Below, piece after piece: positions 7,011 through 49,979 of a DNA stretch of 64,000 bases. Origin of the DNA: an uncultured Alphaproteobacteria bacterium (GTDB taxonomy: Bacteria > Pseudomonadota > Alphaproteobacteria > Rs-D84); assembly GCA_949082785.1 (NCBI GenBank), contig CARVLU010000004.1:23371-87370 (forward strand). The letters run 5' to 3'. Every line of letters starts with the position of its first letter. The stretch's first letter is position 1. The notes under the pieces were generated by a model. That model saw only the letters and a list, made by a program, of their open reading frames with translations, searched no databases and had not been told where the DNA came from. Both the position numbers and the translations under genes were made by a program.

Positions 7011-7034
7011 AATTAAATTCCTTTTGTTTGCATT

Positions 7035-7073
7035 AAAATGAAAATAAAATCAGCCGCCCAAAAAGGACGGCTG
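7035..7073 (-). terminator. intrinsic terminator-like hairpin (cagccgtcc ttttt gggcggctg + U-run) downstream of the transglycosylase gene
   Basis: Perfect 9 bp stem followed by attttatttt on the minus strand. Confidence 0.55.
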
Positions 7074-7112
7074 AATAATCTTATTATACCAGAATTTGGG
7101 ATAAAAATCAAC

Positions 7113-8177: not shown

Positions 8178-8201
8178 ATCATCAACCTTGGTTAAAAAAA
8201 C

Positions 8202-12862: not shown

Positions 12863-13087
12863 GCGTTTGGTGAAAAAAATCCATGCCGGGTGCAACGGCA
12901 TGGCCCCCGCGGGAATCCGCCGCACGCGCCATAAAAAAATACCGCCAAAATAAACGGTCATTTATTTTAGTGGTATTTTTTCTTGCCCTGTGACCCCATT
13001 ATATCACCGTTTCCGCCGCCCCGTCAATCGGAAAGATTGCCCAATCCAAACCACCGGTTGGGCCCGGCAAATTAACGGGGGGAATTT

Positions 13088-13876
13088 ATGAAACACATCA
13101 TGATACGAATTGCCGGCGGCATGGTTGCGGCGTTTGGAATTATTGTCAATCGCGGTCATGCAGACGTGAATAATTGCACCACGTGGACGAACGAAACCGC
13201 GGGTAATTTAAATTACAAAAAATGTTCATACAACAGCGACGGCGGCGGGTATCGATACTTTGCCAGCTGGTCCAGTGTCCCCACCGGCAGCAATGCCTTG
13301 GCGCCGGCGCGCGAAACATGTATGAACGCCATGGGGACCATTGATTATCCGGGCTGCAAAAGTGGTCGCTGTAATCAGACCGGCATTGTCTGCGAAGATA
13401 CGGGGCTGCTGTTTTCTGTGGGCTGTTGCCTGGCCAGTCCGTCGTACGGCCAGCCCGGCGCATGCGCCACCAATGCCACGGGATGCCGCGTCCAGGTTAT
13501 GCCGATAGAGGCCGCAAATTACACCTACTATCGTTTTAACAGTTGTGCGAACGGTTATTACACCCCGACGAATTTGGGCGGGACATGCACCGGAACGTAT
13601 TCATCGTTGGAATCAATTACCGCCTGTTGCGCGCAATGTTCGGGATACCAAAACATCAACGGCCAATGGGTCACGGTCAACGGGGCGTCGGGATCAACAT
13701 CCGGCATATTTATCAATACGTCCACCACACCGGGCATGGGGATTACAACATGTTTGGCGTCAATGTCCCTGGGGCCCATCACCGCCAAAGACAACAGTGG
13801 CACGTACGATTTGATGGGATTTGTGGATGCAAACAACCCCGGTACATATACCAGTGGTTGTTATTATTCCGAATAA
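13088..13876 (+). CDS. secreted cysteine-rich protein (paralog family A)
   Basis: Signal peptide MKHIMIRIAGGMVAAFGIIVNRGHA; more than 20 Cys in CxxC / C...GYY arrangements; ends ...SGCYYSE. Ribosome-binding site ggggg 6 nt upstream. Confidence 0.6.
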   Translation: MKHIMIRIAGGMVAAFGIIVNRGHADVNNCTTWTNETAGNLNYKKCSYNSDGGGYRYFASWSSVPTGSNALAPARETCMNAMGTIDYPGCKSGRCNQTGIVCEDTGLLFSVGCCLASPSYGQPGACATNATGCRVQVMPIEAANYTYYRFNSCANGYYTPTNLGGTCTGTYSSLESITACCAQCSGYQNINGQWVTVNGASGSTSGIFINTSTTPGMGITTCLASMSLGPITAKDNSGTYDLMGFVDANNPGTYTSGCYYSE

Positions 13877-13910
13877 AAAAACCGGCGTTTGCCGGGTTTT
13901 TATTTTTCAT
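13875..13910. terminator. bidirectional intrinsic terminator between cysteine-rich gene (+) and HTH gene (-)
   Basis: aaaaaaa ccggcgtttgccgg tttttattttt: stem flanked by A-run and T-run. Confidence 0.6.
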
Positions 13911-14154
13911 GTCCCGCGTCGGGCAATGGGGTTGGAATAAACTTGGCAAAATCGTCCATGCGGGCACCGGTGGACGCCAAAATTTTGGACAGACTGTGCA
14001 TGGACGGCCAACGGGGCTTGCCTTCTTTGGACCAGCGTTTGCTGCGATTAAACGTCGTCGGATCCAGACCGCTGCACTTGGCCAATCCCGAACAAGACAT
14101 TTTGTGTTCGCTGGCAAAGCGTTCAATGGCATTCCAAATATCTTCGTGTGTCAT
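13900..14154 (-). CDS. small HTH-type DNA-binding protein (phage-repressor-like N-terminal domain)
   Basis: MTHEDIWNAIERFASEHKMSCSGLAKCSGLDPTTFNRSKR resembles the HTH of phage repressor/XRE-like regulators. ATG at 14154. Confidence 0.45.
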   Translation of the reverse strand: MTHEDIWNAIERFASEHKMSCSGLAKCSGLDPTTFNRSKRWSKEGKPRWPSMHSLSKILASTGARMDDFAKFIPTPLPDAGHEK

Positions 14155-14269
14155 TTCTCTCTCCTGTTGCTGAAACTGAATTACCAATACATAAATCATT
14201 GGATGGCGAACCGCCCCCATCTTTCAGCCCCCAGGGTAGAATACAACGTCAATAAATGGTACAGGTTTG

Positions 14270-14719
14270 TTATCCTGCCACCCGCAGATTGGGGCGCAGC
14301 GTGCGCAAATTATCCAGGGATTTTTCCTGGGCCGCGCGGAATGCCGCCGGGTTCCAGATTTGAAAACTGTTGCCGCGGCCGACAAAAACGGCACTGTCGG
14401 TGATACCGGCATGCTGTAACAATTCGGCGGGGATGACAATACGGCCCGTCACATCGAACATCAGCGGCCGCGCATCGGCAAACAGCATGGCCGACAAATC
14501 ATCCAGTTCGCTGTCAAAGACGCCCATTTGGTCGGTTGCCGCCGCCAATTTTTCCATGCGCGCCATGGTCATGCCTTCGATACAATTATGGGTGAACGAC
14601 CGGTATAAAACGACGCCTGCAAATGCGTCACCGGCCACCGAAGCGCGGAAAGACGCCGGGACGGAAATGCGTCCCTTTGTATCCAAACGGTTTTCATAAG
14701 ATGAGAGAAACAATGACAT
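14270..14719 (-). CDS. mraZ: transcriptional regulator MraZ
   Basis: 149 aa with two MraZ repeats (LDTKGRISVPASFR and DVTGRIVIPAELLQ, i.e. the DxxxR motifs) and SpoVT/AbrB-like fold. No rsmH/ftsL follow it in this window. Confidence 0.85.
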   Translation of the reverse strand: MSLFLSSYENRLDTKGRISVPASFRASVAGDAFAGVVLYRSFTHNCIEGMTMARMEKLAAATDQMGVFDSELDDLSAMLFADARPLMFDVTGRIVIPAELLQHAGITDSAVFVGRGNSFQIWNPAAFRAAQEKSLDNLRTLRPNLRVAG

Positions 14720-15088
14720 TTCAGTGTTCCGTGTGGGGCGCGTGCCCGTGCATCCTTCTGGCTTCTGATGTTACCGTAGCACGGGCATTTATGGTTGTCA
14801 ATGACATTGTATAATCAATTCATGGGATTTCATGGTTTTCTAAGTAAAATTTCATATTTTTGAAATAAAATGCCAGTAAATACATTTTTCGCTTGACCAT
14901 CGATTCGTTTTTGTTCTATGATTCGTGTATAGACAACCAAGAAACCAACAAAAAGCCCAGAAAACCGCCCAAAAACCGGAATTCTGGTAAAAACGAAAGC
15001 GAAACAAAAAATTTAACTCAGGAATTTGTAAATACAAACTCTGGCTTGGATTTTTGATTTCAATCAAAAGAAAGGGGGGAACCGCATC

Positions 15089-15421
15089 ATGCAAAAGAAT
15101 ATCAAAGAAATTATGATTGCCCTGAACAAAGTCCTGACGACAACTGTTTGGGTCAACGAAGACCGCCAAATCGTATCGCTGGGTGACGAACTGCAAATCG
15201 GCCACAATAACGCGCCGCGTTCAATCGAAGATTTGTCCCGTCCGTCACTGGTTGGTGCATACGTATCGTTACAGATTCGCACGGATAATTTCGACGTCGC
15301 GGCCGAAAGCATGGATACCAAGGCCTTGGCACTGCGCGTCAAAGAAATGGTCTTTGCCGAAGCGAAAAAGATTATGGATGCGGGCGACGCCACATCCGAC
15401 AAGTTTGCCATGGCGGCATAA
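15089..15421 (+). CDS. hypothetical protein
   Basis: ORF of 110 aa with a strong ribosome-binding site (aaagaaagggggg, 9 nt upstream). No recognisable domain. Confidence 0.4.
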   Translation: MQKNIKEIMIALNKVLTTTVWVNEDRQIVSLGDELQIGHNNAPRSIEDLSRPSLVGAYVSLQIRTDNFDVAAESMDTKALALRVKEMVFAEAKKIMDAGDATSDKFAMAA

Positions 15422-15496
15422 CAGTTTCCGGTCATCCGGAAGGAAGGGAGCACTGTCGGGACATCTGTCCCGACAGTTTTTTATCATCACGACCAT

Positions 15497-15601
15497 TTCC
15501 CTGGATTGCCACGCCACTGACGTGGCTCGCAATGACAAAGGAGATACAGTGCCAGGCAATTCAACACCCTTGTCATTGCGAGCCATCGGCGAAGCAATCC
15601 A
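15497..15601. repeat. MITE-like palindromic element, copy A (9 bp TIR ctggattgc/gcaatccag; internal ctcgcaatgacaa / ttgtcattgcgag arms)
   Basis: ctggattgccacgccactgacgtggctcgcaatgacaaagg...cccttgtcattgcgagccatcggcgaagcaatccag. A second copy is at 19818-19925. Confidence 0.55.
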
Positions 15602-15637
15602 GTAAAAAAAATCCCCACACCAATAAATTTAAATTCC

Positions 15638-15666
15638 TTGAAACTTCGCGCGGGGTGCGATATACT
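15638..15666 (+). promoter_or_regulatory. sigma70-type promoter TTGAAA-17-TATACT driving leader RNA copy 1
   Basis: ttgaaa(15638-43), 17 nt spacer, tatact(15661-66). The identical promoter is present in the inverted copy at 19754-19782. Confidence 0.5.
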
Positions 15667-15672
15667 GGATTC

Positions 15673-15848
15673 GCATTGGGAAACCGGTGTAGGCTTCAAA
15701 ACCTAATAGTACTGTCAGTGATGACATTAAACTATCTCCAACTTTAATCGGTTGGGGGGCTGTGAATATATTGAATAAACAGCGCTATTGTACTAATAGT
15801 TTTGAACCTCCAACCGCCCACAATGTTGTCGGGCGGTGTTTTTTTGCT
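15673..15848 (+). ncRNA. structured leader RNA, copy 1 (outer helix ttcaaaac..gtac/gtac..ttttgaa; long-range ggttggggg/cctccaacc pairing; intrinsic terminator ccgccc..gggcgg-U8)
   Basis: Predicted transcription start ~7 nt after the -10. GGTTGGGGGGCTGTGAATATATTGAATA...CCTCCAACC followed by a terminator ending 24 nt before the ATG at 15872. Family members are at 17244-17417 (-), 19578-19747 (-) and 54058-54160 (+). Confidence 0.45.
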
Positions 15849-15871
15849 TAAAAAAAATAAGGAGTCAAACT

Positions 15872-16099
15872 ATGGCAAAATTATTAATCGACGCAAACTA
15901 TTACGGCAGTGTGATGCGTCATGCGCGCGAACATTTGAAAATCAGTGTTTCCGACGCGGCAAAATTACTGAAAATGAACAAGAAAGATTATCAGAAATGT
16001 GAACGTGGCCAGGCGCTGTTTGATATCGGGATACTGCGCCGTTTCTTTCACGGGGCGTTTGCACTGCTGGTGATAAAACGCAGCCGCGATAATTTGTAG
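15872..16099 (+). CDS. small XRE/Cro-type HTH protein (75 aa), copy A
   Basis: MAKLLIDANYYGSVMRHAREHLKISVSDAAKLLKMNKKDYQKCERGQ is a helix-turn-helix. aaggag ribosome-binding site 8 nt upstream. A near-identical paralog is at 19334-19561 (-). Confidence 0.7.
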   Translation: MAKLLIDANYYGSVMRHAREHLKISVSDAAKLLKMNKKDYQKCERGQALFDIGILRRFFHGAFALLVIKRSRDNL

Positions 16100-16175
16100 C
16101 GCGCATCCGCGTGGCAATCCAGGAATAGGGCATTGTGCGCGTTATGGGATGCCAAAAGGGGACAAAGTGACATAA

Positions 16176-16207
16176 CAAAAACCCCGGCGGTTGCCGGGGA
16201 TTTTATT
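16176..16207. terminator. bidirectional intrinsic terminator
   Basis: aaaaa ccccggcggttgccgggg attttatttc. Confidence 0.6.
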
Positions 16208-16370
16208 TCGCCTTTTTCAGGGACGGTTTGCGGGGGCGGCATTTGTATGCGTTTTTGTCCGCAATCGACAGGGCAATCGCCACCGCCTGTTTCTGGGGGC
16301 GGCCGGCGTGGACTTCGGCGCGGATGTTTTCGGATATGGTTTTGCGGGTGCAACCTTGTTTCAGGGGCAT
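16203..16370 (-). CDS. small basic hypothetical protein (55 aa)
   Basis: MPLKQGCTRKTISENIRAEVHAGRPQKQAVAIALSIADKNAYKCRPRKPSLKKAK. Ribosome-binding site aaagg 8 nt upstream of the ATG at 16370. Confidence 0.4.
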   Translation of the reverse strand: MPLKQGCTRKTISENIRAEVHAGRPQKQAVAIALSIADKNAYKCRPRKPSLKKAK

Positions 16371-16443
16371 GATATAACCTTTCTGTTTCTGGGGACATTG
16401 TATCACAGCGATGGCGCAAAATATACAGGATGAAAATCCAGCC

Positions 16444-17229
16444 TTAGTCAGACAGGTGATACGTTTGGTCGTTGTATCGCACGTTGATTGATGCGGCCGC
16501 GCCCGACTTTAACACGCCATAGCATGTTTTGCCGCCATATCCAATGCGCAATGAAGGCGTGGTATATGCCACCGGATACAAATTAAACGTGCGCCCATTT
16601 CCGGTTTTTATTTTCCCAATTCCGGCCCCGCACAGGGGCACGCATGTGCCATCGTGATTGCCATAACCCGCGTCGCATTCCCATGGACAGTCGTTGGTCG
16701 GCGAACTGTCGGATTGTGCGGGCGTGCCGGCCCCGGTATAATGCGCATGTTCCGGCAGATTTGTGCATGGCCGGGCGTATCGGTACCACGTGTGCCATGT
16801 TGTCCCCACATATTGGGCCAAATAATATCCGGGGTTGGCCCGGTACCATAAAAATGCGGATTGGCCATTCCAGTAATCGGTGCCATTATACCAGCTTTCG
16901 ATATACAGTTCCCCATATGGGCTGGATATAAAGACACCTGCGAAACAATGTGCCGGCCAGATGGCCCCGTTTGTCGATGAACCGGGGTTCCACGACATCA
17001 GCCATGATTGTTGCGTCACCCGGTCCACCGGGTACAGTGTCGATACGAATCCGTACCAATCGGTCGTGTCCGTCGGACATGGATGTTGCGTGTCGTCACC
17101 GGGACAATAATACCCATCGACGCATTTTTCGCATGTGGTGCCGTTTAAATACATCCCCCCATCGCATACGCCCCATGCCACCGCCGGCATTCCCATCACG
17201 CACGCAATTGTCCATAAAACAAATTTCAT
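16444..17229 (-). CDS. secreted cysteine-rich protein (paralog family B)
   Basis: Signal peptide MKFVLWTIACVMGMPAVAWG from the ATG at 17229. Motifs CEKCVDGYYCPGDDTQHPCP and CPWECDAGYGNHDGTCVPLCG; W/Y-rich middle. Confidence 0.6.
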   Translation of the reverse strand: MKFVLWTIACVMGMPAVAWGVCDGGMYLNGTTCEKCVDGYYCPGDDTQHPCPTDTTDWYGFVSTLYPVDRVTQQSWLMSWNPGSSTNGAIWPAHCFAGVFISSPYGELYIESWYNGTDYWNGQSAFLWYRANPGYYLAQYVGTTWHTWYRYARPCTNLPEHAHYTGAGTPAQSDSSPTNDCPWECDAGYGNHDGTCVPLCGAGIGKIKTGNGRTFNLYPVAYTTPSLRIGYGGKTCYGVLKSGAAASINVRYNDQTYHLSD

Positions 17230-17243
17230 TGTTAACCCCGAAC

Positions 17244-17417
17244 AAAAAATAAAACCACCAGAAACGTTTCGGGTGGTTGGAGTTTTACAACAATTGAACG
17301 AATTGCGCGGTTTATTCAATGTATTCACCACACTCCAACCGACAAGATTGGAATGTTTATCGTCACACGGACGCGTTCAACGGGTTGTAAAGCCCCATGG
17401 CGCCATCGGCCACCACG
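17244..17417 (-). ncRNA. structured leader RNA, copy 2 (promoter GTGACA-17-TATAAT at 17424-17452; ggttggag/ctccaacc; terminator ccaccc..ggtgg-U)
   Basis: Minus-strand ggttggagtgtggtgaatacattgaataaaccgcgc...aaactccaaccacccgaaacgtttctggtggttttatttttt ending 15 nt before the start codon of the cysteine-rich gene. Confidence 0.45.
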
Positions 17418-33299: not shown

Positions 33300-33573
33300 G
33301 TTTTGTATCAGCGACAAATTCACACAGGCCCAAAAATCACCCGCACTTTATCTGTCCCCCATACCGCTTTACGCCAGTAGCCTGCGCTACAATAGCACAA
33401 ACATTCCAGAAATCAAGCGGAAAGTATTATAAGACTTTAATCGCCCCAGCGCAAGCGATTTTTCACATCCGCCGCAGAATTCGTTGCCCAAAATCGCATT
33501 TTTGCCACACTTTTCGCTTGCGCAGGCGCTTATTTTTTGGCTACAATCTTTTTAATAGAAGGGAGAACGCATC

Positions 33574-34233
33574 GTGGCCGATAGGATAGAGCCGCCAATT
33601 TTACTGTCCAGACTGATGACATTTGTCTTTGCCGCCGCGCTGGTCGTGGTGGTGGTTTTGGTGGTCACACTGGCCAAAATGTTTCCGCTGAACCGGCCCC
33701 AAATTTTCTTTTTGACGACGCAGCCGCGTTCTGATTTGGAAATCCGACTGTACCCCATGACGCCGCGCGACGAAAACGTCGATATTTACAAGCGCAGCTT
33801 TATCAAGGAATATATCAAGGCCCGCAACGAAATCATCCCGAACGTCGGCGTCATGCGGCGCAAGTGGTCAAATACCGACGACGGCATCGTGAACATGTGG
33901 TCCACGCCCGATGTTTATGCCGCCCTGACCCAGACGGATTTGTGGACCGCGTACATGAACGACGTGCCCGATACGGAATTCTATTGTCCGGTGGAATTTG
34001 CGCCCAATGCCATCGCACCGCGTTCCGACGACACCTATGCGGTCAGTTTTACGTATTTTTGTACAAATAATAATGGACAGACCGATAAAAAAGATTATAC
34101 AATCGTAATCAGATTGGAATCTGACGAAAATCCAACCATTAAATGGGGGGACCGCCTGAACAACCCGCTGGGGATTCGCGTGGCCGAATATACGGTCGAA
34201 TCCGGGAACGGCGACCCATTGGACTTTAAATAA
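33574..34233 (+). CDS. virB8: type IV secretion system protein VirB8
   Basis: GTG start with aagggag ribosome-binding site; N-terminal TM; C-terminal NTF2-like domain ending ...NNPLGIRVAEYTVESGNG, which matches the VirB8 signature NPLGFQVSEYR. Confidence 0.85.
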   Translation: MADRIEPPILLSRLMTFVFAAALVVVVVLVVTLAKMFPLNRPQIFFLTTQPRSDLEIRLYPMTPRDENVDIYKRSFIKEYIKARNEIIPNVGVMRRKWSNTDDGIVNMWSTPDVYAALTQTDLWTAYMNDVPDTEFYCPVEFAPNAIAPRSDDTYAVSFTYFCTNNNGQTDKKDYTIVIRLESDENPTIKWGDRLNNPLGIRVAEYTVESGNGDPLDFK

Positions 34234-34274
34234 TACCGGCACCGTCAGAAGACACAGTAAGGAAAGGGACCATA

Positions 34275-35810
34275 ATGACTTTTTCAAAAGCATTGAAATT
34301 AAACGTATCCGTGATTTGCCTGGGGGCGTTGTGCTGTGCAATGCCGGCGACGGCCGCCGAATACGGGGTTCAGTCGGCGTGGGACAATCCCAACGCAAAC
34401 ATGGCCGCCGGCAGTATTAAGCCCGGCTATGCCCAACTGGCGTGGTCCGCGGGTAATGTTTTACCGATTAAATTGCGCAACGGCATGGTGACAATGGTCA
34501 CATTGCCCAACGGCGAACAAATCGCCGACGCCCAGATTGGGAACGGGGGCCTGTTTGATATCCAGGCGACCCAGGGCGAACGCACCATGTTCATCAGCCC
34601 CATGCCGGACAACTTGGGGTCGGACACAAACCTGATTGTGATTGGCAAATCGGGCAACGTTTATACATTTTATCTGCGCAGCGAACCTTCGAATTCCAGT
34701 GAAATTACACATTCCCAGGTGGACGTCGTCCTGGACGGCAACGCCAGTTTGCCGATGGCATCCGCGGCCAGCACCACATCCGGCGGCGGCATGAATTCGC
34801 TGTTTAAAAAGAAATCATCCACCCCATCGACCGTCGGCGTTGACGGCGAAGATTACGGTTGGATTAAATCGATGAAAATCGACCCGTCGGAATTCCGCTT
34901 TGACCTGGACATTTTTGTCCCCAATCCGGATGATTACGTCATTGCGCCCGAACGCGTATGGCGCGACCGCATTTTCACATACATTGATTTCGGGGACAAG
35001 GTTATTTCCATGACCCAGCGTCCCGTGGTATCCCTGTTGGTCGAAGGGGGCGAATCCCCGGTCGGATTCCGCACCGACGGCGAAGATGGGCGCCTGTTGA
35101 TTGTAGAAGCGGTGGGCGACATGGTCCTGCGCAGTGGCCAGCGTATTGTTTGCATTAAAAAGCGTGAAAAACCGTTCCTGATTGCGGATACCGCGTCCGT
35201 TATGGCCCTGGCAGAAGCGAACGTGGCCCAATCCATGATGTCCGGCCAATCGTTGAACAACATTGCATACAACGCCGACCTGGCCGCGATGAGTGGGTCT
35301 GTCAACAACTATACCACAACCCCGATGTTTTCTTACAACGGGGCGGCACCGCAACAAATGAACGCCGGCGTTTATGGCGGGTATTATGCGCCGACGGGAT
35401 ATAACGCACCGGCACCGACATCGTCTGGTGTTTCCATGTTGCCGACGCAACGCAACACGGCGGGCGCCTATTTACCCCAGACAAACATCCCATTGATTAC
35501 CAGCAACCAAACCGGCGTTGCGGTGGAATTGAAATCCGATACCTCGGTCAAGGCGTTAAATGATTACTGGACGGGTCTGCTGGCGAAATTCAGCGGCGAA
35601 GACGGCCAGGGTCTGCTGACCCCGTACAAAGACAGCGTATTCTTTGCTGTCGATGAACAGGGTGTGGGCGACCTGGGGGCGGATTCTTCGACGGCGCGCC
35701 TGTATCGTCTGCGCATTGGTCCGATGTCCGACATCGACACTGCCCAGCGTTTGTGCGACCAGATGCTGAAATTCAGCGGCACCAGCTGTCATGTCGTTCG
35801 CATCCAGTAA
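34275..35810 (+). CDS. virB9: VirB9/TrbG/CagX-family T4SS protein with ~230 aa C-terminal extension ending in a SPOR-like domain
   Basis: Signal peptide. VirB9 N-terminal domain (...VTMVTLPNGEQIADAQIGNGGLFDIQATQGERTMFISPM...TNLIVIGKSGNVYTFYL) and C-terminal beta-sandwich (...RIFTYIDFGD...GRLLIVEAVGDMVLRSGQRIVCI). Low-complexity N/Q/Y-rich linker, then ...VFFAVDEQG...RLYRLRIGPMSDIDTAQRLCDQMLKFSGTSCHVVRIQ (SPOR-like). Confidence 0.8.
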   Translation: MTFSKALKLNVSVICLGALCCAMPATAAEYGVQSAWDNPNANMAAGSIKPGYAQLAWSAGNVLPIKLRNGMVTMVTLPNGEQIADAQIGNGGLFDIQATQGERTMFISPMPDNLGSDTNLIVIGKSGNVYTFYLRSEPSNSSEITHSQVDVVLDGNASLPMASAASTTSGGGMNSLFKKKSSTPSTVGVDGEDYGWIKSMKIDPSEFRFDLDIFVPNPDDYVIAPERVWRDRIFTYIDFGDKVISMTQRPVVSLLVEGGESPVGFRTDGEDGRLLIVEAVGDMVLRSGQRIVCIKKREKPFLIADTASVMALAEANVAQSMMSGQSLNNIAYNADLAAMSGSVNNYTTTPMFSYNGAAPQQMNAGVYGGYYAPTGYNAPAPTSSGVSMLPTQRNTAGAYLPQTNIPLITSNQTGVAVELKSDTSVKALNDYWTGLLAKFSGEDGQGLLTPYKDSVFFAVDEQGVGDLGADSSTARLYRLRIGPMSDIDTAQRLCDQMLKFSGTSCHVVRIQ

Positions 35811-35856
35811 CGAATTTTTTGGGGACCGCGCGCACCGCGGCGGGGAACGGTAACAT

Positions 35857-38283
35857 ATGAATAAGATAGCCAAACAATTTTCCGACCTGCGTCAGACGAC
35901 GCCGAAACATATCCAGTGGTTATTGCTGGTGGCGGCGTTTGTGGTGGTGCTGATATTGTTGACGCTGTTGTTGCGTGGCCGCACGGAAAAAACGGACGTG
36001 GTGACGTTGCCCGATGACGAAAAATTAACACTGGCGGTGACCCCCGACAGTGTGGATTGGGCAAACACGACCGTCGGCACGAAAAAAACGCAAAAAATCA
36101 CGATTTCAACCACCGGCGCGGTAAAGATTGCGGCGGTGCGCCTGTCCCGGGAAGTTGCGGGCCTGGCCACGCCCAAAACGACATGCACCAACATGGGCGA
36201 AATCAATGACAAGATTTCATGCACCATCAGTTTGACGTACGAACCGACGGTCCCGATGGACACGACGGGCGTATCGTTGTTTGTGGATTGGCGCGGTGTG
36301 GACGCGCCGGACGGGATGACGCGCGCGGAAAAAATCCCGATGGCGCTGGGCGCGGTGTCGCCCACCCCGGTGATTCCACCGGCCCCAAAATCCGAACCGG
36401 CCCCCGCACCCGCGGCGCAGCCCGAACCCGACGTCGTCCCGGTTGTTGATATCGAACCGGCGCGCCCCCAGCCCAGCGCGCAGATTCAGCGTGACATCGA
36501 CACCATTGCGCCCCCGCTGCCCATGCTGGACAACAAATCGAATGCCAAACCCGCCCCCCAGGTTAATGCGGACGACGACATCACGGTGACAATATCTGAT
36601 GGCTGTTCTGATTTTTCATTCCCGGGCTATAACACATCGGGGCAACAGATTGGCTGGATTAAACCGGAACGCGGCGCGTATTATTTCTATCCCTTTGCCG
36701 ACCGCGAATGCAAAAACGCCACCGGGAAATATAATCCCGACAACGGCATTATCACGGCAATCAACAACCCGTCCCAGAAAATCGGCACGGACGCCGAACA
36801 CATTGGCCACACAACGATTTCGGGGGCCGCATTGCCCCAATTGTCCAACCCGGTTGCCAATTCAAACGTGAACCGTGCCCGCCAATTGACCAGTGCGGAA
36901 TTATCACAATCGATGTCGATGGGCACCGGCGCGGCCCAGGTTGCGCTGAAACCGGCGCCGGCATCTGATATTTTATACACGACATCCGACGCAAATGTGG
37001 TTGCATCGACCCAGCCGTACGACCGGTCGTTCATCCTGCGCCAATATAAACCGATTCCGGCCACAATCGTGTCCGATGTGCGCGCCGACACAACCCTGAT
37101 TAATGGCCAGCAATTCTTGCCCGTGCGCGCGACGGTGGACCGCAACGTGTATTCGGACAACGGTCGCACGGTTATCATCCCGACCGGGACATTGATGTTG
37201 GGGTATGTCACCGGCGAAGTGCCGGGCCCGTACAAGACCATTGGTCGTATGGAAATCAAATGGTACCAATTTGTTTTGCCCAATGGCGTTGAATTTAACT
37301 TTGGCGGCGCGACCGATCCGTTTTCCGGCGACGCCCAGGGTCGCATTGGCGTTCCCGGCCGGGGCAGTACGGATTACCTGGAACAATTCGTGATGCCGAT
37401 GCTGACCGCGATTGTGCCGGCGGCCGTCAATATGATTGCGCCCATTGCGGACAAATTCGTGAACCAAATCGATTTGGATAACAACACAGTTGTGCAATCG
37501 GGTACGGTCCGTTCGTCTGAATTGGCGAAAAATGAAATCATCACGGCCTGGAACCAGGTGGCCCAGAAATTAATGGTCGATATGATGGACAACACCACGC
37601 CCCCGTTCACGATTGCGGCCGGCACGCGCATTACGGTTTATTCGCCCCAGGATTTGGCGGTGGTCTGCATGGATAATTCCAAGAAATGTTCATTGCAACA
37701 TTTGAAAGAACAATCACCGACGGGCAACCCAATGCGTGCGACCCCATCGCCCAGCATTCGTGCGGCGGAAGACGATTCTTGGATTGGCCAGGTACGTTCG
37801 TTCAATTGGGCCGCCGAATACTGTTCGGATTACAAGGATGGTAAATTAAACCTGACCAACGCCCAGGTCCGAGAAATGAATTCCAAGGGGATTGATTACA
37901 ACACGGTTCTGTTCTATTGCCAGTCCAACCAGTACAAGGCGATTAACAACGCGAAACAGGACGCCGTCTTTAACAATCAACAGCAGACGTTCCAGAACAA
38001 TTACAACGTCAGCAACAACGGCACGGGTCTGACGGGGATATCGGGCGACCAAAGTTATAACGAAGATGTCTTGGGCTTGAAATACAATGACGACGGCACT
38101 ATACAAAATCCGTTCAACCAGACATTGCCCGTGGAAACACCGCCGGCAACCATCACCTGCGAAGATGGGACCAACCCGGATGCGAACGGTTGCTGTACGG
38201 GTGAAATATACACCGACATGGGGGACCAGGGATTTAACTGTTGTCCCGAAACCGGTGGCGACTGTTTTCCGCCGATATTATAA
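35857..38283 (+). CDS. virB10: VirB10/TrbI-family T4SS protein with ~180 aa C-terminal Cys/Asn-rich extension
   Basis: TM helix, Pro-rich region (PTPVIPPAPKSEPAPAPAAQPEPD). VirB10 core (IPATIVSDVRADTTLING..VRATVDRNVYSDNGRTVIIPTGTLMLGYV...GRMEIKWYQFVLPNGVEFNFGG...TRITVYSPQDLAV), then an extra tail ending CEDGTNPDANGCCTGEIYTDMGDQGFNCCPETGGDCFPPIL. Confidence 0.85.
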   Translation: MNKIAKQFSDLRQTTPKHIQWLLLVAAFVVVLILLTLLLRGRTEKTDVVTLPDDEKLTLAVTPDSVDWANTTVGTKKTQKITISTTGAVKIAAVRLSREVAGLATPKTTCTNMGEINDKISCTISLTYEPTVPMDTTGVSLFVDWRGVDAPDGMTRAEKIPMALGAVSPTPVIPPAPKSEPAPAPAAQPEPDVVPVVDIEPARPQPSAQIQRDIDTIAPPLPMLDNKSNAKPAPQVNADDDITVTISDGCSDFSFPGYNTSGQQIGWIKPERGAYYFYPFADRECKNATGKYNPDNGIITAINNPSQKIGTDAEHIGHTTISGAALPQLSNPVANSNVNRARQLTSAELSQSMSMGTGAAQVALKPAPASDILYTTSDANVVASTQPYDRSFILRQYKPIPATIVSDVRADTTLINGQQFLPVRATVDRNVYSDNGRTVIIPTGTLMLGYVTGEVPGPYKTIGRMEIKWYQFVLPNGVEFNFGGATDPFSGDAQGRIGVPGRGSTDYLEQFVMPMLTAIVPAAVNMIAPIADKFVNQIDLDNNTVVQSGTVRSSELAKNEIITAWNQVAQKLMVDMMDNTTPPFTIAAGTRITVYSPQDLAVVCMDNSKKCSLQHLKEQSPTGNPMRATPSPSIRAAEDDSWIGQVRSFNWAAEYCSDYKDGKLNLTNAQVREMNSKGIDYNTVLFYCQSNQYKAINNAKQDAVFNNQQQTFQNNYNVSNNGTGLTGISGDQSYNEDVLGLKYNDDGTIQNPFNQTLPVETPPATITCEDGTNPDANGCCTGEIYTDMGDQGFNCCPETGGDCFPPIL

Positions 38284-38308
38284 ACCCGCATCATGCGGGT
38301 TTATTTTT
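38284..38308 (+). terminator. intrinsic terminator after virB10
   Basis: acccgcatcatgcgggt hairpin + ttatttttgg. Confidence 0.5.
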
Positions 38309-38545
38309 GGATAACGTTTTTTTGACCATTAAAATTCGGGCACATTTATGTGCCCAAAATTTTATGGGCCGCTGGGCGGAATCTGGCACCGTGACGGCGC
38401 GATTCGACTGACCCGGATTAAATCAGCCCAGCGATATAGATTTCCGATTCGAACTTCAACCTTTGGTTGTAACGTTTTACAGGAAACTATTCTTAATCTA
38501 TATATTAAAAAGTCCGCAACATTTTTACCAACAAGGAGAGCAAGA

Positions 38546-38893
38546 ATGACACAACAAACCATGCAAACAACTATCCCGGCCGAAAAGTTTCAAAATGCGG
38601 AACAGCTGTGGTTTTGGTTTTTGTACGCACGCAGCGTACGAAACGGCTTTGTCCGGGGCCATATGACGTCCCAGCGTCGCATCTGCGAATTGCTGGACGT
38701 GGAAACATTGGTAACGAAACTGTATTTATCGGGCCGACTGACCGACGCCCAACTGTCCGTGATGAAGGAATTTGGTGACCGTCGCCGCGCCCCGCACCAA
38801 CACATCTGGGCCGAAAATAAAAAGGCAGAATTATGGCGCACCGCCATGTCCGTATTAAACGCCGCCGCCACGGCACGCGGTTGGATTGAATAA
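38546..38893 (+). CDS. hypothetical protein (115 aa)
   Basis: Strong ribosome-binding site aaggagag 7 nt upstream. MTQQTMQTTIPAEKFQNAEQLWFWFLYARSV... No family recognised. Confidence 0.45.
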   Translation: MTQQTMQTTIPAEKFQNAEQLWFWFLYARSVRNGFVRGHMTSQRRICELLDVETLVTKLYLSGRLTDAQLSVMKEFGDRRRAPHQHIWAENKKAELWRTAMSVLNAAATARGWIE

Positions 38894-38907: not shown

Positions 38908-39252
38908 ATGATTATTATCGCATTTGCACAAAACACATCCCGCATATGGCCACGGATAATTTGCCGCAGATATCGCCATTGTGCGGTGATTGCACCCGCG
39001 GGGGACAAATTGGTACTGCACCAATTTACGCGCCGGGGCCAATGCACAACATTGACATTATCCGCGCGTGATATGCGCATTCTGGGACGCGGCGGCTGGG
39101 TGTTTATCTATCTGCCGGGAACACTGGCCGCGGATTTTGATGGCGCATCCGCCCGCACATGTGTCGCAATGGCCAAACATGCGGCACGCATCAGCGCCCC
39201 ATTTGTCCAGACGCCATTGGCGCTGTACAAATATCTGATGCGCCGCGCATAA
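38908..39252 (+). CDS. hypothetical protein (114 aa)
   Basis: ATG 14 nt after the previous stop; probably co-transcribed. No family recognised. Confidence 0.4.
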   Translation: MIIIAFAQNTSRIWPRIICRRYRHCAVIAPAGDKLVLHQFTRRGQCTTLTLSARDMRILGRGGWVFIYLPGTLAADFDGASARTCVAMAKHAARISAPFVQTPLALYKYLMRRA

Positions 39253-39363
39253 CCAATCCCGCCCCGGCGGGATTTTTAATTTATCGGGCACTTCACTTCT
39301 GTGGCACCGCATGGCGCGGCAATGGGGATGGATAAAAAAATCCCCGCGGATGCGGGGATAGTC

Positions 39364-44799: not shown

Positions 44800-45912
44800 T
44801 TAATGAAATATATAGCAATCGATTCCGACGCCCGCCGCGCGTGATTTCAAATTGGCGGCAGACGCATCCGACAAATTATTGACGCGGACACGAAACATGC
44901 CGTTGGGCGCGGGTTCAATGGTGGCCGTGACATTTAACGCACTGCGCACACGCGCAACCTGGGTCTGGGCGGCGTCACGCGATGCAAACGCGCCGAATTG
45001 AACGCCCGCATTGCCCGGCGTGTGGGTGGTCGGCGGCGCCGTGACGGCCGATGCGCGCACGGGCGCGGCGTATGTTGGGGCCGGTGTCTTGGTCGTTTGG
45101 ACCGTTACCGGCGCGGTGCCATTGTCCAGCATCGCGAACCCCTTGTTCAGCATGTTTGTCGATACCGCCGCGCGCACATCTTTGTTTTCCGCCCCCAGCA
45201 CGACGGAAATCAAGCGGCGGTTTCCCCGCTTTGCCGTCGCCACCAGCGAATATTTGGATTTGTTGGTAAATCCGGTCTTCATCCCGTCGCACCCCGGATA
45301 CATCCCCAACAACCGGTTGCCGTTGGTATATGTTTTGCCGTTATACGTCCACGATTTAATGCCGAAATATTTCCAATACTGGGGAAAATGTTTATACACC
45401 GCCATCGACAACAACGCGATATCGCGCGCGGTTGATAACTGGTCATCATTGGGCAACCCGGATGAATTTTCAAAATTGGTTTTCGACAATCCGATTTCGG
45501 TTGCCACCCGCGTCATCAGGGATGCAAAGTTCCCTTCCTTGCCACCCTTTAAATTTTCGGCCAACACGCGGGCGATGTCATTGGCGCTAAGCACGGCGAC
45601 GGCCTTAATCGCATCTTCGACACTAATCTTGCTGCCGGCGGCAACGCCCAGTTTGACCGGTGACGCATTCGCGGCCGATTGCGATACAATCAGATAATCA
45701 TCCAGATGCAGCCGCCCGTGTTCCAACGCATCAAACGTCAGATACAGCGTCATAATTTTGGTCAAACTTGCCGGATAATTTAAATCGCCCGCATTTTCAG
45801 AATACAGCACGCGCCCAGTGTCCATATCGGCGACCAACGCGGCGCGATACCCGCCGGCGTGCGCCGCGCCACACAAACACACCAATAAAAAGGCAAGACA
45901 GCCAAATCTCAT
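44800..45912 (-). CDS. D-alanyl-D-alanine carboxypeptidase (PBP5/6 type) with C-terminal SPOR domain
   Basis: Signal peptide; SLTKIMT (SxxK) and SGL (SxN-like) motifs; C-terminal ...GVQFGAFASRDAAQTQVARVRSALNVTATIEP..FRVRVNNLSDASAANLKSRAAGVGIDCYIFH is SPOR-like. Confidence 0.8.
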   Translation of the reverse strand: MRFGCLAFLLVCLCGAAHAGGYRAALVADMDTGRVLYSENAGDLNYPASLTKIMTLYLTFDALEHGRLHLDDYLIVSQSAANASPVKLGVAAGSKISVEDAIKAVAVLSANDIARVLAENLKGGKEGNFASLMTRVATEIGLSKTNFENSSGLPNDDQLSTARDIALLSMAVYKHFPQYWKYFGIKSWTYNGKTYTNGNRLLGMYPGCDGMKTGFTNKSKYSLVATAKRGNRRLISVVLGAENKDVRAAVSTNMLNKGFAMLDNGTAPVTVQTTKTPAPTYAAPVRASAVTAPPTTHTPGNAGVQFGAFASRDAAQTQVARVRSALNVTATIEPAPNGMFRVRVNNLSDASAANLKSRAAGVGIDCYIFH

Positions 45913-47987: not shown

Positions 47988-49979
47988 TTGCATGGAATGG
48001 ATATAAATTCCTATACTTTATCCATGCGGGAATTTATCAGCGAACAATTTCAAAACCGTTTTCTGTGGGCGCCGTTTCTGATGGCGTTTGGTGCGGCGCT
48101 GTATTTCACGTTGAACGGTGAACCGCCACTGCCGTGCCCGGTGCTGTTTGCGATTGCGATGCTGGCGGGTGCATTCGCGCCACGCGTGCCGACATTGTTG
48201 CGTGGCATTTTACTGTTGGGGTTTGGATTTTGTTATGCGGCGGCGTTCACGCATGTTATCGACACACCGCAAATCACACGCAATTTGCGCGACCTGGAAA
48301 TTTCCGGTACAATCACAAAAATTGATTACACCGATACGAAAACACGCATCTATATCCGTATTCCGGCCAACCTGATTAACCGCGATATTTCCGAAAACCG
48401 CACGGCAACGGTTCGGGTGTCAATGTCTGAAATCCCGACGCCCGTGCACATCGGCGACACAATTGATGCGCGCGTCACACTGTTTCGTCCCGCATCCAGT
48501 TACATGCCCGAAACATTCGATTATGCCCGTTGGGCGTATTTCAACGGATTGTCCGCAACCGGCTTTGTCCAGGATTATTCGATTACATCCACACGCACAT
48601 ACAATATAAACACACTGCGCGATTATATTCACGGGAAATCCGATTCATTTCTGGCCGACACGCTGGTTCTGGGATATAAATCCGCATTACCGGATGACGA
48701 CCGCACAATTTGGACGACAAACGGTGTGGGTCACGTCTGGTCCATCAGTGGATTTCACATGACACTGGTGTCGGGTTGGTTGTTCGCATTCTTTTACCTA
48801 ATCTTTCGCACTATTGCACCCATAACGCGGCGCGTACCCGCACGGATTCCCGCCATGATTTGCGCATGGTTCGGACTGTTGTTTTATTTGTTCATATCGG
48901 GCGGCGGGATTGCGACCATTCGCGCGTTCTTGATGACGTCATTGGTATTTGCCGCATTTGTGTCGGGCCGCGAAGCCCTGTCGATGCGCAACATTTGCCT
49001 GGCGTTTTGTTTGATATTCCTGATTAATCCGCACTATGTGATGCAACCGGGATTTCAATTATCGTTTTCCGCGGTGTTCGGTTTGATTTGGTATTTCAGA
49101 AATTCCACATATCAAAAGCGCACAGTGATTCAGCGTATCCGTCGCGCCATCGCCGCCGCCGCAATGACATCCATTATCGCAACAATCTTTACCACGCCGT
49201 TTGTGGCCGCACATTTCTATCAATTCCCGACATATTCGTTGGTGGGTAATCTGATTTTGTTGCCACTGTTTTCAGTGGCGATTATGCCGCTGGTCATGCT
49301 GGGGACGGTGACGGCGACACTGGGATGGACGGGACCATTAATGTTGGCTGAAATGATTTATCACGGGGCGTTGGCGGTTGCGACGAAAATCGCGGCACTG
49401 CCACTGGCCGTCATTTTGACGCCACATATTCCAAACATCGCCATTGTGTTTATGATTGTGGGATTTCTGTGTTTGATGTTTATCCGCGCGACGCGTCCAA
49501 AAATAAATTACATCCTGTGCGCGTCATTTATCGGCATTGGTGTGGTGATAACCGCCCTGGCACCGCGGCCGATATTCTTTGCCACGCACGACCACGAATT
49601 AATCGCATTTGTTGCACCCGACGGCAAACTGGAATTTAACAAAGCCCGCGCATCCAACCACTTCTTTGCGTTCGACACGTGGAAGCAAATAAACACAGAA
49701 CCAACCGCAACACCAAATCGTCGCCGTAAATGCGTACGCGGTGTTTGCATATTTGAAACCCAAAATTGGACACTGGCATATACCCAGAAATTTGTGCCCA
49801 CCATGAACAACATTGCAAAATTCTGTCGTGACGAATCGATTGATTACATTGTGTCGTACTTTGACATCGACGCGCCGGGTTGCAATCACAAAATTTTGCG
49901 TGGCGCATTTTCAATTTACAAATCTGGTCGCGTGAAGTATCACGTTACGCGTCGGCCGTGGCATAATCCGCGCCGATAA
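47988..49979 (+). CDS. comEC: ComEC/Rec2 family competence protein (no metallo-beta-lactamase domain evident)
   Basis: DUF4131-like N-terminus plus competence domain (multi-TM; NGVGHVWSISGFHMTLVSGW). Confidence 0.8.
   Translation: MHGMDINSYTLSMREFISEQFQNRFLWAPFLMAFGAALYFTLNGEPPLPCPVLFAIAMLAGAFAPRVPTLLRGILLLGFGFCYAAAFTHVIDTPQITRNLRDLEISGTITKIDYTDTKTRIYIRIPANLINRDISENRTATVRVSMSEIPTPVHIGDTIDARVTLFRPASSYMPETFDYARWAYFNGLSATGFVQDYSITSTRTYNINTLRDYIHGKSDSFLADTLVLGYKSALPDDDRTIWTTNGVGHVWSISGFHMTLVSGWLFAFFYLIFRTIAPITRRVPARIPAMICAWFGLLFYLFISGGGIATIRAFLMTSLVFAAFVSGREALSMRNICLAFCLIFLINPHYVMQPGFQLSFSAVFGLIWYFRNSTYQKRTVIQRIRRAIAAAAMTSIIATIFTTPFVAAHFYQFPTYSLVGNLILLPLFSVAIMPLVMLGTVTATLGWTGPLMLAEMIYHGALAVATKIAALPLAVILTPHIPNIAIVFMIVGFLCLMFIRATRPKINYILCASFIGIGVVITALAPRPIFFATHDHELIAFVAPDGKLEFNKARASNHFFAFDTWKQINTEPTATPNRRRKCVRGVCIFETQNWTLAYTQKFVPTMNNIAKFCRDESIDYIVSYFDIDAPGCNHKILRGAFSIYKSGRVKYHVTRRPWHNPRR

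What the first reader, a model, noticed from the sequence alone, without database searches (positions are those of the whole stretch)
33574..38283. Stand-alone T4SS core module virB8-virB9-virB10 with no virB11/virD4 (or virB3/4/6) in the vicinity
Rickettsiales-type T4SS loci carry virB8-virB9-virB10-virB11-virD4 as a unit. Here the block stops at virB10 with a terminator (38284-38308). It is followed by two unknown small ORFs and then the convergent yidC.
Upstream it starts directly after tRNA-Trp-secE. Either the ATPases are encoded elsewhere (a split system), or this is a remnant or repurposed outer-membrane core complex.
Basis: partly seen in the sequence, partly recalled or inferred. Interest (0 to 1): 0.6.

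Follow-up and report, generated by a model that had tools for sequence, protein, structure and literature searches.

The report
Orphan secretion-channel operon, strongly conserved
A tiny-genome gut bacterium (Candidatus Enterousia) keeps only the channel-forming three genes (virB8-virB9-virB10) of a type IV secretion machine, under very strong selection. I could not find the motor ATPases next to them or in a targeted database search, so this is either a scattered system or a secretion channel working without its usual motor.

Summary
Window 33574-38283 holds three co-directional genes with VirB8, VirB9 and VirB10 domains, and a hairpin terminator follows at 38280-38304. The window is chromosomal DNA of uncultured Candidatus Enterousia (order Rs-D84), whose genomes are under 1 Mb.

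The order secE/tRNA-Trp | virB8-9-10 | terminator | orfA-orfB | yidC recurs in about 149 independent loci, so it is not a misassembly. It is not a remnant either. VirB9 residues 201-320 are 98.7% identical across about 58 species whose ribosomal protein L1 is only 86% identical, while synonymous sites have diverged.

VirB9 carries an extra C-terminal SPOR (peptidoglycan-binding) domain. VirB10 (808 aa) has an added PapD-like domain and a cysteine-rich tail.

Related uncultured Alphaproteobacteria keep the full set in one cluster: virB2-B3-B4 ... virB8-virB7-virB8-virB9-virB10-virB11, with virD4 in one case. Enterousia has none of these partners within 10 kb.

A search with the closest available VirB4 found the relatives' genes but none on 259 known Enterousia contigs. 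I could not scan a whole genome, so 'scattered system' versus 'ATPase-less channel' stays open, roughly even.

The parts
33300..33573 (+). Intergenic region between tRNA-Trp and virB8; presumed promoter of the operon. It contains no VirB7-like lipoprotein ORF.
   Evidence: Only short ORFs (46 aa or less) without a lipobox lie here. The VirB7-like lipoproteins of relatives L074, L070, L075, L161 and L162 have no tblastn match in the window or in 149 Enterousia loci. The promoter itself was not identified.
33574..34233 (+). virB8: bitopic inner-membrane protein with a cytoplasmic tail of about 13 aa, one TM helix and a periplasmic VirB8/NTF2-like domain.
   Evidence: Pfam VirB8 9e-14 over aa 3-208. 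Median identity is 52% across 58 species. The N-terminal tail plus TM helix (aa 1-40) is its most conserved part at 62-72%. The tail is shorter than in relatives, where it is about 20-47 aa.
34275..35810 (+). virB9: signal peptide, VirB9 N-terminal domain (aa ~40-155), VirB9 C-terminal domain (aa ~200-300), disordered linker, and a C-terminal SPOR domain (aa ~414-510).
   Evidence: CagX 4e-21; TIGR02781 VirB9 4e-14. AlphaFold model pLDDT is 76 overall and about 95 in the three domains. Foldseek matches: Xanthomonas VirB9 6gyb_B 9e-17, R388 TrwF 8rt6_B and 7o3t_B, TraO 2ofq.
34875..35234 (+). Hyper-conserved segment of VirB9 (aa 201-320: the C-terminal domain plus the following helix).
   Evidence: 98.7% amino-acid identity across about 58 species. 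Only 48.6% of the identical residues use the same codon, so the constraint is on the protein, not the DNA. For comparison, RplA and NusG are 86% identical.
35514..35804 (+). SPOR-type (peptidoglycan glycan-strand binding) domain fused to the C-terminus of VirB9.
   Evidence: Pfam SPOR 6e-4, 20.5 bits against a cutoff of 21. Orthologous domains in relatives L070 and L072 score 21.7 and 22.2 bits, above the cutoff. The model matches the RlpA SPOR domain 6i09_A with TM 0.72, probability 1.0. The domain is 82% identical within the lineage.
35857..38283 (+). virB10 (808 aa): 20-aa cytoplasmic tail, TM helix (aa 21-40), PapD/ASH-like Ig domain (59-167), Pro-rich linker, conserved beta domain (250-315), TrbI barrel (396-600) with a two-helix antenna (506-578), and a Cys-rich C-terminal extension (604-808).
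   Evidence: TrbI 1e-18; NF038091 T4SS_VirB10 6e-17; choice-of-anchor-D 4e-6. AlphaFold pLDDT is 56 overall and about 85 for aa 59-167 and 250-310. Foldseek matches the ASH/PapD-like domain 6fvi at 1e-5. Identity is 86% for aa 420-600 and 84% for the last 39 aa. Ten cysteines are invariant within aa 604-803.
37372..37590 (+). Predicted antenna helices of VirB10. In solved T4SS structures this element lines the outer-membrane pore.
   Evidence: Helices 506-541 and 554-578 appear in the model but with low pLDDT of about 50. Sequence identity is 86-96% across species. The pore role is taken from solved VirB10/TraF structures, which is my own knowledge, not tested here.
38280..38309 (+). Intrinsic-terminator-like hairpin plus T-run ending the virB8-10 operon.
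   Evidence: 11-bp stem with 5 GC pairs, then TTTTT. It is conserved in position, with compensatory stem changes, in at least 42 of 59 species.
38546..38893 (+). orfA (115 aa): cytoplasmic, function unknown, always follows virB10 in this lineage. Probably not a T4SS part.
   Evidence: RBS AAGGAGAG and the ATG at 38546 match the called gene. Median identity is 66% in 60 loci. No Pfam, PHROG or PDB-profile hit. Absent from relatives L070-L075. One homolog sits beside an integrase in Azospirillum.
38908..39252 (+). orfB (114 aa): function unknown, with invariant Cys19, His24 and Cys85. Followed by a terminator-like hairpin at 39255-39274.
   Evidence: Median identity is 45% in 58 loci. No family or structure hit.

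Best explanation
The three genes form a working, vertically inherited operon. It encodes the envelope-spanning channel scaffold of a P-type (VirB/rvh-like) type IV secretion system. VirB9 and VirB10 would form the outer-membrane core ring and pore. VirB10 would reach back to the inner membrane through its TM helix. VirB8 would be the inner-membrane-anchored periplasmic partner. The SPOR domain on VirB9 would fasten the ring to peptidoglycan. The operon arose by reduction of a complete, contiguous T4SS that related uncultured Alphaproteobacteria still carry. My preferred reading, held at about even odds, is that Enterousia has lost the cognate VirB4, VirB11, VirB7 and pilus genes. On that reading the trio works as a stripped-down, peptidoglycan-anchored conduit or docking structure for exchange with a partner cell, gated or powered by something other than the usual T4SS ATPases. 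Shown: domain identities, operon boundaries, lineage-wide synteny, strength of selection, the complete systems in relatives, and the absence of partners within 10 kb. Inferred: assembly into a ring, the pore, genome-wide absence of ATPases, and the biological role.
For: Functional constraint: VirB9 has a median identity of 76%, against 61% for YidC, 65% for KefB and 74% for RecR. VirB9 aa 200-320 is 98.7% identical and the VirB10 barrel 86%, with synonymous sites diverged. These genomes are under 1 Mb and show no pseudogene build-up (PMC12306168).

Reduction from a complete system: L162 carries virB2-virB4-(5 genes)-virB8II-virB7-virB8I-virB9(SPOR), with virB10-virB11 inferred further along the same 37,076-bp contig from the contig-length match to VirB11 hit P0315. 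L161 carries virB2-B3-B4-...-B7-B8-B9-B10-B11-virD4-relaxase, and its VirB9 is 45% identical to the window's. L070 and L074 keep virB7-B8-B9-B10-B11.

Absence of partners: tblastn with B2, B3, B4, B6-like, B7, B11 and D4 from L161, L162, L074, L070 and Agrobacterium gave zero hits in the window plus 149 Enterousia loci, 2.2 Mb in all.

The VirB4 test: a search of 5.8 billion proteins with L161 VirB4 returned only 179 hits at E <= 1e-20. The 120 listed are 53-61% identical. Several share contig lengths with the relatives' VirB9 and VirB11 genes (29655, 37076, 220698, 40894, 55610). None matches any of 259 Enterousia contig lengths, 14 of which are 300 kb or more and two of which (935 kb and 797 kb) are roughly whole genomes. 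Enterousia gave about 870 clusters for VirB10, so a lineage-wide VirB4 should have added hundreds of hits. Shared 5-mer counts indicate that a VirB4 down to about 35% identity would have been collected.

The VirB8 cytoplasmic tail is cut down to about 13 aa.

A sister lineage (L072/L073) also has virB8-9-10 alone, right after rpsB-tsf.
Against: Every characterised T4SS needs VirB4. No ATPase-less derivative is known to me, so the prior is low.

The absence test is indirect. Only 120 of the 179 VirB4 hits were visible. The candidate filter of the search tool works on shared 5-mers, and my sensitivity estimate for it is a calculation, not a control. I could not scan any whole Enterousia genome.

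Enterousia VirB8 and VirB10 are far more diverged from the relatives than VirB9 is (20% and 30% identity). A very diverged VirB4 could therefore have escaped.

The VirB8 tail and TM helix and the VirB10 tail and TM helix are well conserved (62-75%; invariant R12, P16, Q20). This points to a conserved inner-membrane or cytoplasmic partner.

I have no mechanism for gating or energising the channel.
Confidence: 0.45

Rival explanations
1. Split T4SS. The trio is the channel module of a complete secretion system, and its VirB4 (with VirB3, VirB6, VirB2 and perhaps VirB11 or VirD4) is encoded at other places in the Enterousia chromosome, as in the scattered rvh system of Rickettsiales. It would deliver effectors to, or take material from, a partner cell using ATP.
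For: In Rickettsia the rvh genes lie in 'an archipelago of five islets' and still form one system (PMC2653234). Relatives of this exact subfamily have VirB4 and VirB11. The cytoplasmic tails and TM helices of VirB8 and VirB10 are conserved, as expected if they touch inner-membrane partners. In solved R388 structures the VirB8 tails contact VirB4; that is my own knowledge. The strong constraint on the core fits a working multi-part machine. A partner-dependent lifestyle is predicted for these bacteria.
Against: No cognate VirB4 was seen on any of 259 Enterousia contigs. The total number of hits (179) is too small to include a lineage-wide Enterousia VirB4. Nothing lies within 10 kb in 149 loci or in 81 kb of the source contig. 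The only published genome survey I could read mentions no secretion system for Rs-D84, which is weak evidence.
Confidence: 0.4
2. ComB-like DNA-uptake conduit. The channel brings DNA across the outer membrane for ComEC, serving as a nucleotide source in a bacterium that cannot make nucleotides. This parallels Helicobacter comB6-10, which is encoded apart from comB2-4. It describes a function and could hold under either of the two readings above.
For: ComEC is encoded 10 kb downstream (47988-49979). In relative L074 comEC lies two genes after virB11. NCBIfam ComB10 matches at 1e-13. The published survey (PMC12306168) reports that these genomes lack nucleotide synthesis and standard uptake transporters.
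Against: The ComB10 score (51 bits) is far below its cutoff (300) and lower than the VirB10 score. ComEC is widespread and its closeness here may be old synteny, since pyk also lies near the cluster in L072. Enterousia also encodes large proteins with type-IV-pilin-like N-termini that could serve ComEC. ComB itself needs ComB4.
Confidence: 0.1
3. Decaying remnant of a lost T4SS or of an integrated mobile element, or an assembly artefact at 38.3 kb.
For: It is truncated relative to the relatives' clusters. The orfA homolog in Azospirillum sits beside an integrase.
Against: The reading frames are full length in about 60 species. Protein identity equals or exceeds that of housekeeping genes, with diverged synonymous sites. 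G+C and neighbours are chromosomal. The same junctions appear in 149 independent loci.
Confidence: 0.02

Closest known systems
Complete P-type T4SS of uncultured Alphaproteobacteria (loci L161 in GCA_964521375.1, L162 in Logan SRR31444215, L070, L074)
   Same: Same subfamily. VirB9 is 34-45% identical over the N- and C-terminal domains and carries the same C-terminal SPOR domain in L162, L070, L074 and L072. The gene order virB8-virB9-virB10 is the same. VirB10 has added periplasmic domains.
   Different: Those loci also carry virB2, B3, B4, several accessory genes, a VirB7 lipoprotein (motif SPCAC), a second virB8 and virB11. L161 additionally has virD4 and a relaxase. Enterousia has none of these nearby. 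Its VirB8 tail is shorter, and its VirB10 has its own Cys-rich tail.
Rickettsiales vir homolog (rvh) T4SS
   Same: Chromosomal, in reduced host-dependent Alphaproteobacteria. The genes are scattered. The relatives' layout virB8II-virB7-virB8I-virB9-virB10-virB11 mirrors the rvh islet (PMC2653234, PMC11077975).
   Different: The rvh hallmarks are duplicated VirB4, VirB8 and VirB9 and multi-copy VirB6. They were not seen here: there is a single VirB8 and a single VirB9 at the locus. The organism is Rs-D84, not Rickettsiales. I know of no report of a SPOR domain on rvh VirB9, and no paper pairs 'VirB9' with 'SPOR domain'.
Outer-membrane core complex of pKM101/R388/Xanthomonas T4SS (VirB7-VirB9-VirB10)
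   Same: The VirB9 N- and C-terminal domain folds match solved chains (6gyb_B, 8rt6_B, 7o3t_B, 3jqo_B, 2ofq). VirB10 has a TrbI barrel with predicted antenna helices.
   Different: No VirB7 lipoprotein is encoded nearby. There is a SPOR domain on VirB9. VirB10 is twice the usual size. Sequence identity to plasmid VirB10 is only about 28-30%.
Helicobacter pylori ComB DNA-uptake T4SS
   Same: The channel genes (comB6-10) form an operon apart from the ATPase operon (comB2-4). There is no VirB11 or VirD4. It works with ComEC. This description is my own knowledge.
   Different: ComB retains ComB4 and ComB7. The ComB10 model scores far below its cutoff here.

Membership tests
P-type (VirB/MPF-T) type IV secretion system | VirB4-family ATPase, the one component common to all T4SS | tested here: inconclusive
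   None in 81 kb of the source contig or in 2.2 Mb of Enterousia loci. The database search with the closest VirB4 gave no hit on 259 Enterousia contigs. No whole genome could be scanned.
P-type (VirB/MPF-T) type IV secretion system | VirB9 with N- and C-terminal beta-sandwich domains | tested here: met
   CagX 4e-21. Foldseek matches VirB9 chains down to 9e-17; per-domain TM-scores are 0.59-0.81.
P-type (VirB/MPF-T) type IV secretion system | VirB10: inner-membrane anchor plus C-terminal TrbI barrel with antenna | tested here: met
   TrbI 1e-18 and T4SS_VirB10 6e-17, the latter below NCBIfam's equivalog cutoff. A TM helix lies at aa 21-40. Two long helices sit inside the barrel region, though the barrel was modelled with low confidence.
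P-type (VirB/MPF-T) type IV secretion system | VirB8 bitopic protein with an NTF2-like periplasmic domain | tested here: met
   Pfam VirB8 9e-14 over aa 3-208, above the cutoff. The fold was not modelled.
P-type (VirB/MPF-T) type IV secretion system | VirB7 lipoprotein, VirB11 and VirD4 encoded with the channel genes | tested here: not met
   Present in relatives L070, L074, L161 and L162. Absent within 10 kb in 149 Enterousia loci.
Rickettsiales vir homolog (rvh) | Duplicated VirB8 and VirB9 | tested here: not met
   One copy of each at the locus. Relatives L070, L075 and L162 do have two or three VirB8 paralogs. Copies elsewhere in the genome were not testable.
Rickettsiales vir homolog (rvh) | Duplicated VirB4, multi-copy VirB6 and no VirB5 (PMC11077975) | not testable with these tools
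   This needs a whole genome.
ComB DNA-uptake T4SS | ComB10 equivalog | tested here: not met
   NF038092 scores 51 bits against a cutoff of 300, weaker than the VirB10 model.
SPOR domain (PF05036) | Beta-alpha-beta-beta-alpha-beta fold that binds denuded glycan strands | tested here: met
   20.5 bits against a cutoff of 21 in the window protein; 21.7 and 22.2 bits in orthologous domains of L070 and L072. The model has pLDDT of about 90 and matches RlpA SPOR with TM 0.72. Binding was not tested.

The most novel reading that the evidence does not exclude
A whole order of reduced-genome gut bacteria has kept only VirB8, VirB9 and VirB10 of a type IV secretion system, with no VirB4 or other T4SS ATPase anywhere in the genome. 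The trio would work as an autonomous, peptidoglycan-anchored envelope channel or cell-cell docking structure. That would be the first T4SS-derived machine without the ATPase that defines the family.
Probability: 0.45. Interest if true: 0.85.

Novelty: new variant of a known kind. Interest (0 to 1): 0.62.

Why it matters
Candidatus Enterousia is common in mammalian, bird and termite guts. It has under 1 Mb of DNA, no respiration and almost no biosynthesis, and nobody knows how it obtains what it needs or from whom. This operon is one of the most constrained stretches in the region studied, so it is a prime candidate for the interface with its partner.

If the ATPases are elsewhere, the result extends rvh-like scattered T4SS beyond Rickettsiales and adds a VirB9-SPOR architecture that I found no paper describing. 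If they are absent, it breaks the rule that every T4SS is built around VirB4. It would then offer a natural minimal system for asking what the core complex can do alone. Either outcome can be decided with genomes that already exist.

Tried and rejected
**Searches and scans that led nowhere**
- I looked for a VirB7-like lipoprotein in the 275-bp upstream gap and by tblastn. None was found.
- I tried to walk along the 114.5-kb source contig beyond the window.
- The VirB11 search with L074 was uninformative for Enterousia. Its top 120 hits were all 66-71% identical proteins that look like those of the RF32-like relatives. Two matches to Enterousia contig lengths (5223, 5324) were chance: L145 (5324 bp) holds no VirB11 by tblastn, and the 5223-bp contig could not be checked.
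- The metagenome scan with a VirB9 alignment returned only Enterousia loci, so it added no new distant contexts.
- The AFDB fold library was not available.
- Papers: the 2023 Enterousia description is not held, and the 2025 survey has no supplements held.

**Hypotheses tested and dropped**
- orfA and orfB have no hit in Pfam, NCBIfam, PHROGs or PDB profiles. They are absent from relatives and lie beyond a terminator, so I do not count them as T4SS parts.
- The 1089-aa protein upstream of virB7 in L075 is not a VirB6. It has one TM segment and no TrbL hit.
- The insertions between orfB and yidC in some species are housekeeping genes, not T4SS genes.
- The VirB10 model was too poor in the barrel to match solved VirB10 chains. 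Only the PapD-like domain matched.

**Idea not pursued**
- Large proteins with type-IV-pilin-like N-termini lie near the cluster in three lineages. I considered that they might cooperate with the channel, but the adjacency is explained at least partly by shared housekeeping synteny.


Full report
**What is there**

Three co-directional ORFs lie at 33574-34233, 34275-35810 and 35857-38283, separated by 41 and 46 bases.
- The first matches Pfam VirB8 (9e-14).
- The second matches CagX/VirB9 (4e-21).
- The third matches TrbI/VirB10 (1e-18).

All three are above Pfam's cutoffs. The NCBIfam VirB9, VirB10 and ComB10 models match but stay far below their equivalog cutoffs, so these are diverged family members.

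A GC-rich hairpin at 38280-38304 followed by a T-run overlaps the virB10 stop codon. Upstream lie tRNA-Trp, secE, nusG, rplKAJL and rpoBC on the minus strand. Downstream lie two small ORFs and then convergent yidC-lspA-kefB-ksgA-recR.

**Whose DNA it is**

The exact VirB10 protein occurs in 201 blocks of the metagenome collection. The window is part of a 114.5-kb contig from run ERR3199533.

Relatives in the species-representative genome set are labelled Candidatus Enterousia or unnamed Alphaproteobacteria, from mouse, human, chicken, ruminant and termite guts. Published work places Enterousia in order Rs-D84. Its genomes are 0.75-1.0 Mb with normal coding density. It has no respiration, no amino-acid, nucleotide or lipid synthesis, and a predicted partner-dependent life (PMC12306168). 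That paper mentions no secretion system.

**Neither artefact nor remnant**

tblastn with 16 window proteins shows the order secE | virB8-virB9-virB10 | orfA-orfB | yidC in nearly all of 65 species loci. Eighty further metagenome loci carry the same VirB9 at 69-100% identity. Where extra genes are inserted, they are housekeeping genes. The hairpin plus T-run after virB10 is kept in at least 42 of 59 species, with compensatory stem changes.

Median protein identity to the window:

| Protein | Median identity |
|---|---|
| VirB9 | 76% |
| VirB10 | 53% |
| VirB8 | 52% |
| RecR | 74% |
| KsgA | 72% |
| KefB | 65% |
| YidC | 61% |
| RplA, NusG | 86% |

Within VirB9, residues 201-320 are 98.7% identical. 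Only 48.6% of those identical residues use the same codon, the same saturation as elsewhere. The constraint is therefore on the protein. The VirB10 barrel (420-600) is 86% identical and its last 39 residues 84%.

**Anatomy of the proteins**

The VirB9 model (pLDDT 76) has three confident domains. The first two match VirB9 N- and C-terminal domains in solved core complexes from Xanthomonas, R388, pKM101, Dot/Icm and Cag. The third matches the RlpA SPOR domain with TM 0.72. Pfam SPOR scores 20.5 bits here and is above the cutoff in two orthologous domains of relatives.

VirB10 is 808 aa, with these parts in order:
- a short cytoplasmic tail
- a well-conserved TM helix
- a PapD/ASH-like Ig domain
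- a proline-rich linker
- a conserved beta domain
- the TrbI barrel with two long helices where the pore-forming antenna is expected
- a 200-aa extension with ten invariant cysteines

The VirB10 model is poor overall (pLDDT 56), so the barrel rests on sequence evidence only. VirB8 has an unusually short cytoplasmic tail of about 13 aa. That tail and the TM helix are its most conserved parts.

**Where it came from**

A phmmer search of 1.84 billion representative proteins with VirB9 gave only 513 hits at E <= 0.001, so this is a small, distinct VirB9 subfamily. I examined the genomic contexts of its non-Enterousia members.
- L070 and L074 carry a VirB7-like lipoprotein, virB8 (two copies in L070), virB9 with SPOR, a giant virB10 and then virB11.
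- L162 carries virB2, virB4, five unknown genes, virB8II, virB7, virB8I and virB9. It lies on a contig that, by its length fingerprint, also carries the VirB11 hit P0315.
- L161 (67% G+C) has the full conjugative set virB2 to virB11 plus virD4 and a relaxase. Its VirB9 is 45% identical to the window's.
- L072/L073 is the closest non-Enterousia lineage (VirB9 47-52% identical). It has the bare trio right after rpsB-tsf.

The Enterousia operon is therefore a cut-down descendant of a complete T4SS. The relatives' layout resembles the rvh islet of Rickettsiales (PMC2653234, PMC11077975).

**Are the missing parts elsewhere?**

I could not scan a genome. What I could do follows.
- Pfam annotation or my own Pfam scans over 81 kb of the source contig show no T4SS gene.
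- tblastn with every T4SS protein from Agrobacterium, L161, L162, L074 and L070 against 2.2 Mb of Enterousia-lineage loci finds only VirB8, VirB9 and VirB10.

The database tools report the longest contig for each protein cluster, so I used contig length as a fingerprint. It works for the relatives. VirB9, VirB11 and VirB4 clusters share the lengths 37076, 29655, 209303, 117008, 220698, 40894 and 55610.

The search with L161 VirB4 gave only 179 hits at E <= 1e-20. The 120 listed are 53-61% identical. None sits on any of 259 known Enterousia contigs, 14 of which are 300 kb or longer.

Shared 5-mer counts are 72-119 at 53-61% identity, 12 at 37% and 4 at 25%. My estimate is that a VirB4 of 35% identity or more would have been collected. 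Since Enterousia yields about 870 VirB10 clusters, a lineage-wide VirB4 should have added hundreds of hits.

This argues against a cognate VirB4, with three caveats:
- 59 hits were not shown.
- The filter behaviour is my estimate, not a measured control.
- Enterousia VirB8 and VirB10 are much more diverged than VirB9.

**Weighing the readings**

Knowledge of T4SS says VirB4 is indispensable, and scattering has a precedent in Rickettsiales. The conserved tails and TM helices also suggest inner-membrane partners. Against this stand the negative VirB4 test, the loss of VirB7 and VirB11 on both flanks, the shortened VirB8 tail, and a sister lineage with the same bare trio.

I put the ATPase-less reading at about 0.45 and the split system at about 0.40. 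A DNA-uptake role with ComEC is a possible function under either. Remnant and artefact are excluded.

**The two small ORFs**

orfA (real start 38546, with a ribosome-binding site) and orfB are conserved in the lineage (66% and 45% median identity). They lie beyond the terminator and are absent from the relatives. They have no family, phage-family or structure-profile hit. The only outside homolog of orfA sits next to an integrase in Azospirillum. I treat them as neighbours, not parts.

**Novelty**

I found no paper that describes a T4SS in Enterousia or Rs-D84, and none that pairs VirB9 with a SPOR domain. These searches cover open-access text only. As it stands, this is a new variant of a known kind. 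It would be more than that if whole-genome scans confirm that no VirB4 exists.

Noticed in passing
L011 18342-22209 (-), L015 12127-15994 (-); L071 6835-9535 (+); L070 12111-12704 (+): Large proteins (197-463 aa) have type-IV-pilin-like N-termini (for example RGSMLVELLL, HGASITEVLL). Three in a row occur in two Enterousia species about 6 kb from virB10. Homologs lie just upstream of virB9 in L071, and one directly follows virB11 in L070. Family hits are only weak (ComGD/ComGE/GspI, E about 0.01).
   Followed up: partly
window 44800-45912 (-): An S11 D-Ala-D-Ala carboxypeptidase also carries a weak SPOR domain. This is a second SPOR fusion within 10 kb of the VirB9-SPOR gene.
   Followed up: no
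window 47988-49979 (+); L074 18865-21015: ComEC has DUF4131 and Competence domains but no beta-lactamase domain. It lies 10 kb from the operon here and two genes after virB11 in relative L074.
   Followed up: partly
window 6513-9683 (-): A 165-aa protein with a phage Mtd_N (tropism determinant N-terminal) domain sits beside an MltB-type lytic transglycosylase (SLT_2) and a Pom-like outer-membrane protein.
   Followed up: no
window ~12900-17400: This stretch has ORFs with no Pfam match except one small HTH protein (15836-16099), and no Rfam match. The related strain L069 has different called genes after the M13 peptidase, so this may be a variable region.
   Followed up: no
L074 11563-16086; L070 4115-10939: VirB10 of the relatives is giant (1507 and 2274 aa), with Bflower_2/DUF3659-type repeats ahead of the TrbI barrel.
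   Followed up: no
L046 6665-7549 (also L050, L052): In three rumen species a 294-aa secreted protein is inserted between secE and virB8. It shares a 'TSKDYVD' N-terminal motif with a 200-aa protein in termite locus L066 (7129-7731).
   Followed up: no
window 35857-38283 versus L002 10001-12433: In the closest other species, VirB8 and VirB9 are 96-97% identical to the window but VirB10 only 81%. VirB10 changes faster than its partners at short range. The variable stretches are aa 41-60, 161-240, 341-380 and 601-680.
   Followed up: partly
L158 3971-5380 (Azospirillum argentinense p1): The only outside homolog of orfA (35% identity) is directly followed by a tyrosine recombinase and lies near a DNA methyltransferase and a transposase. 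This hints that the orfA family travels on mobile elements.
   Followed up: partly
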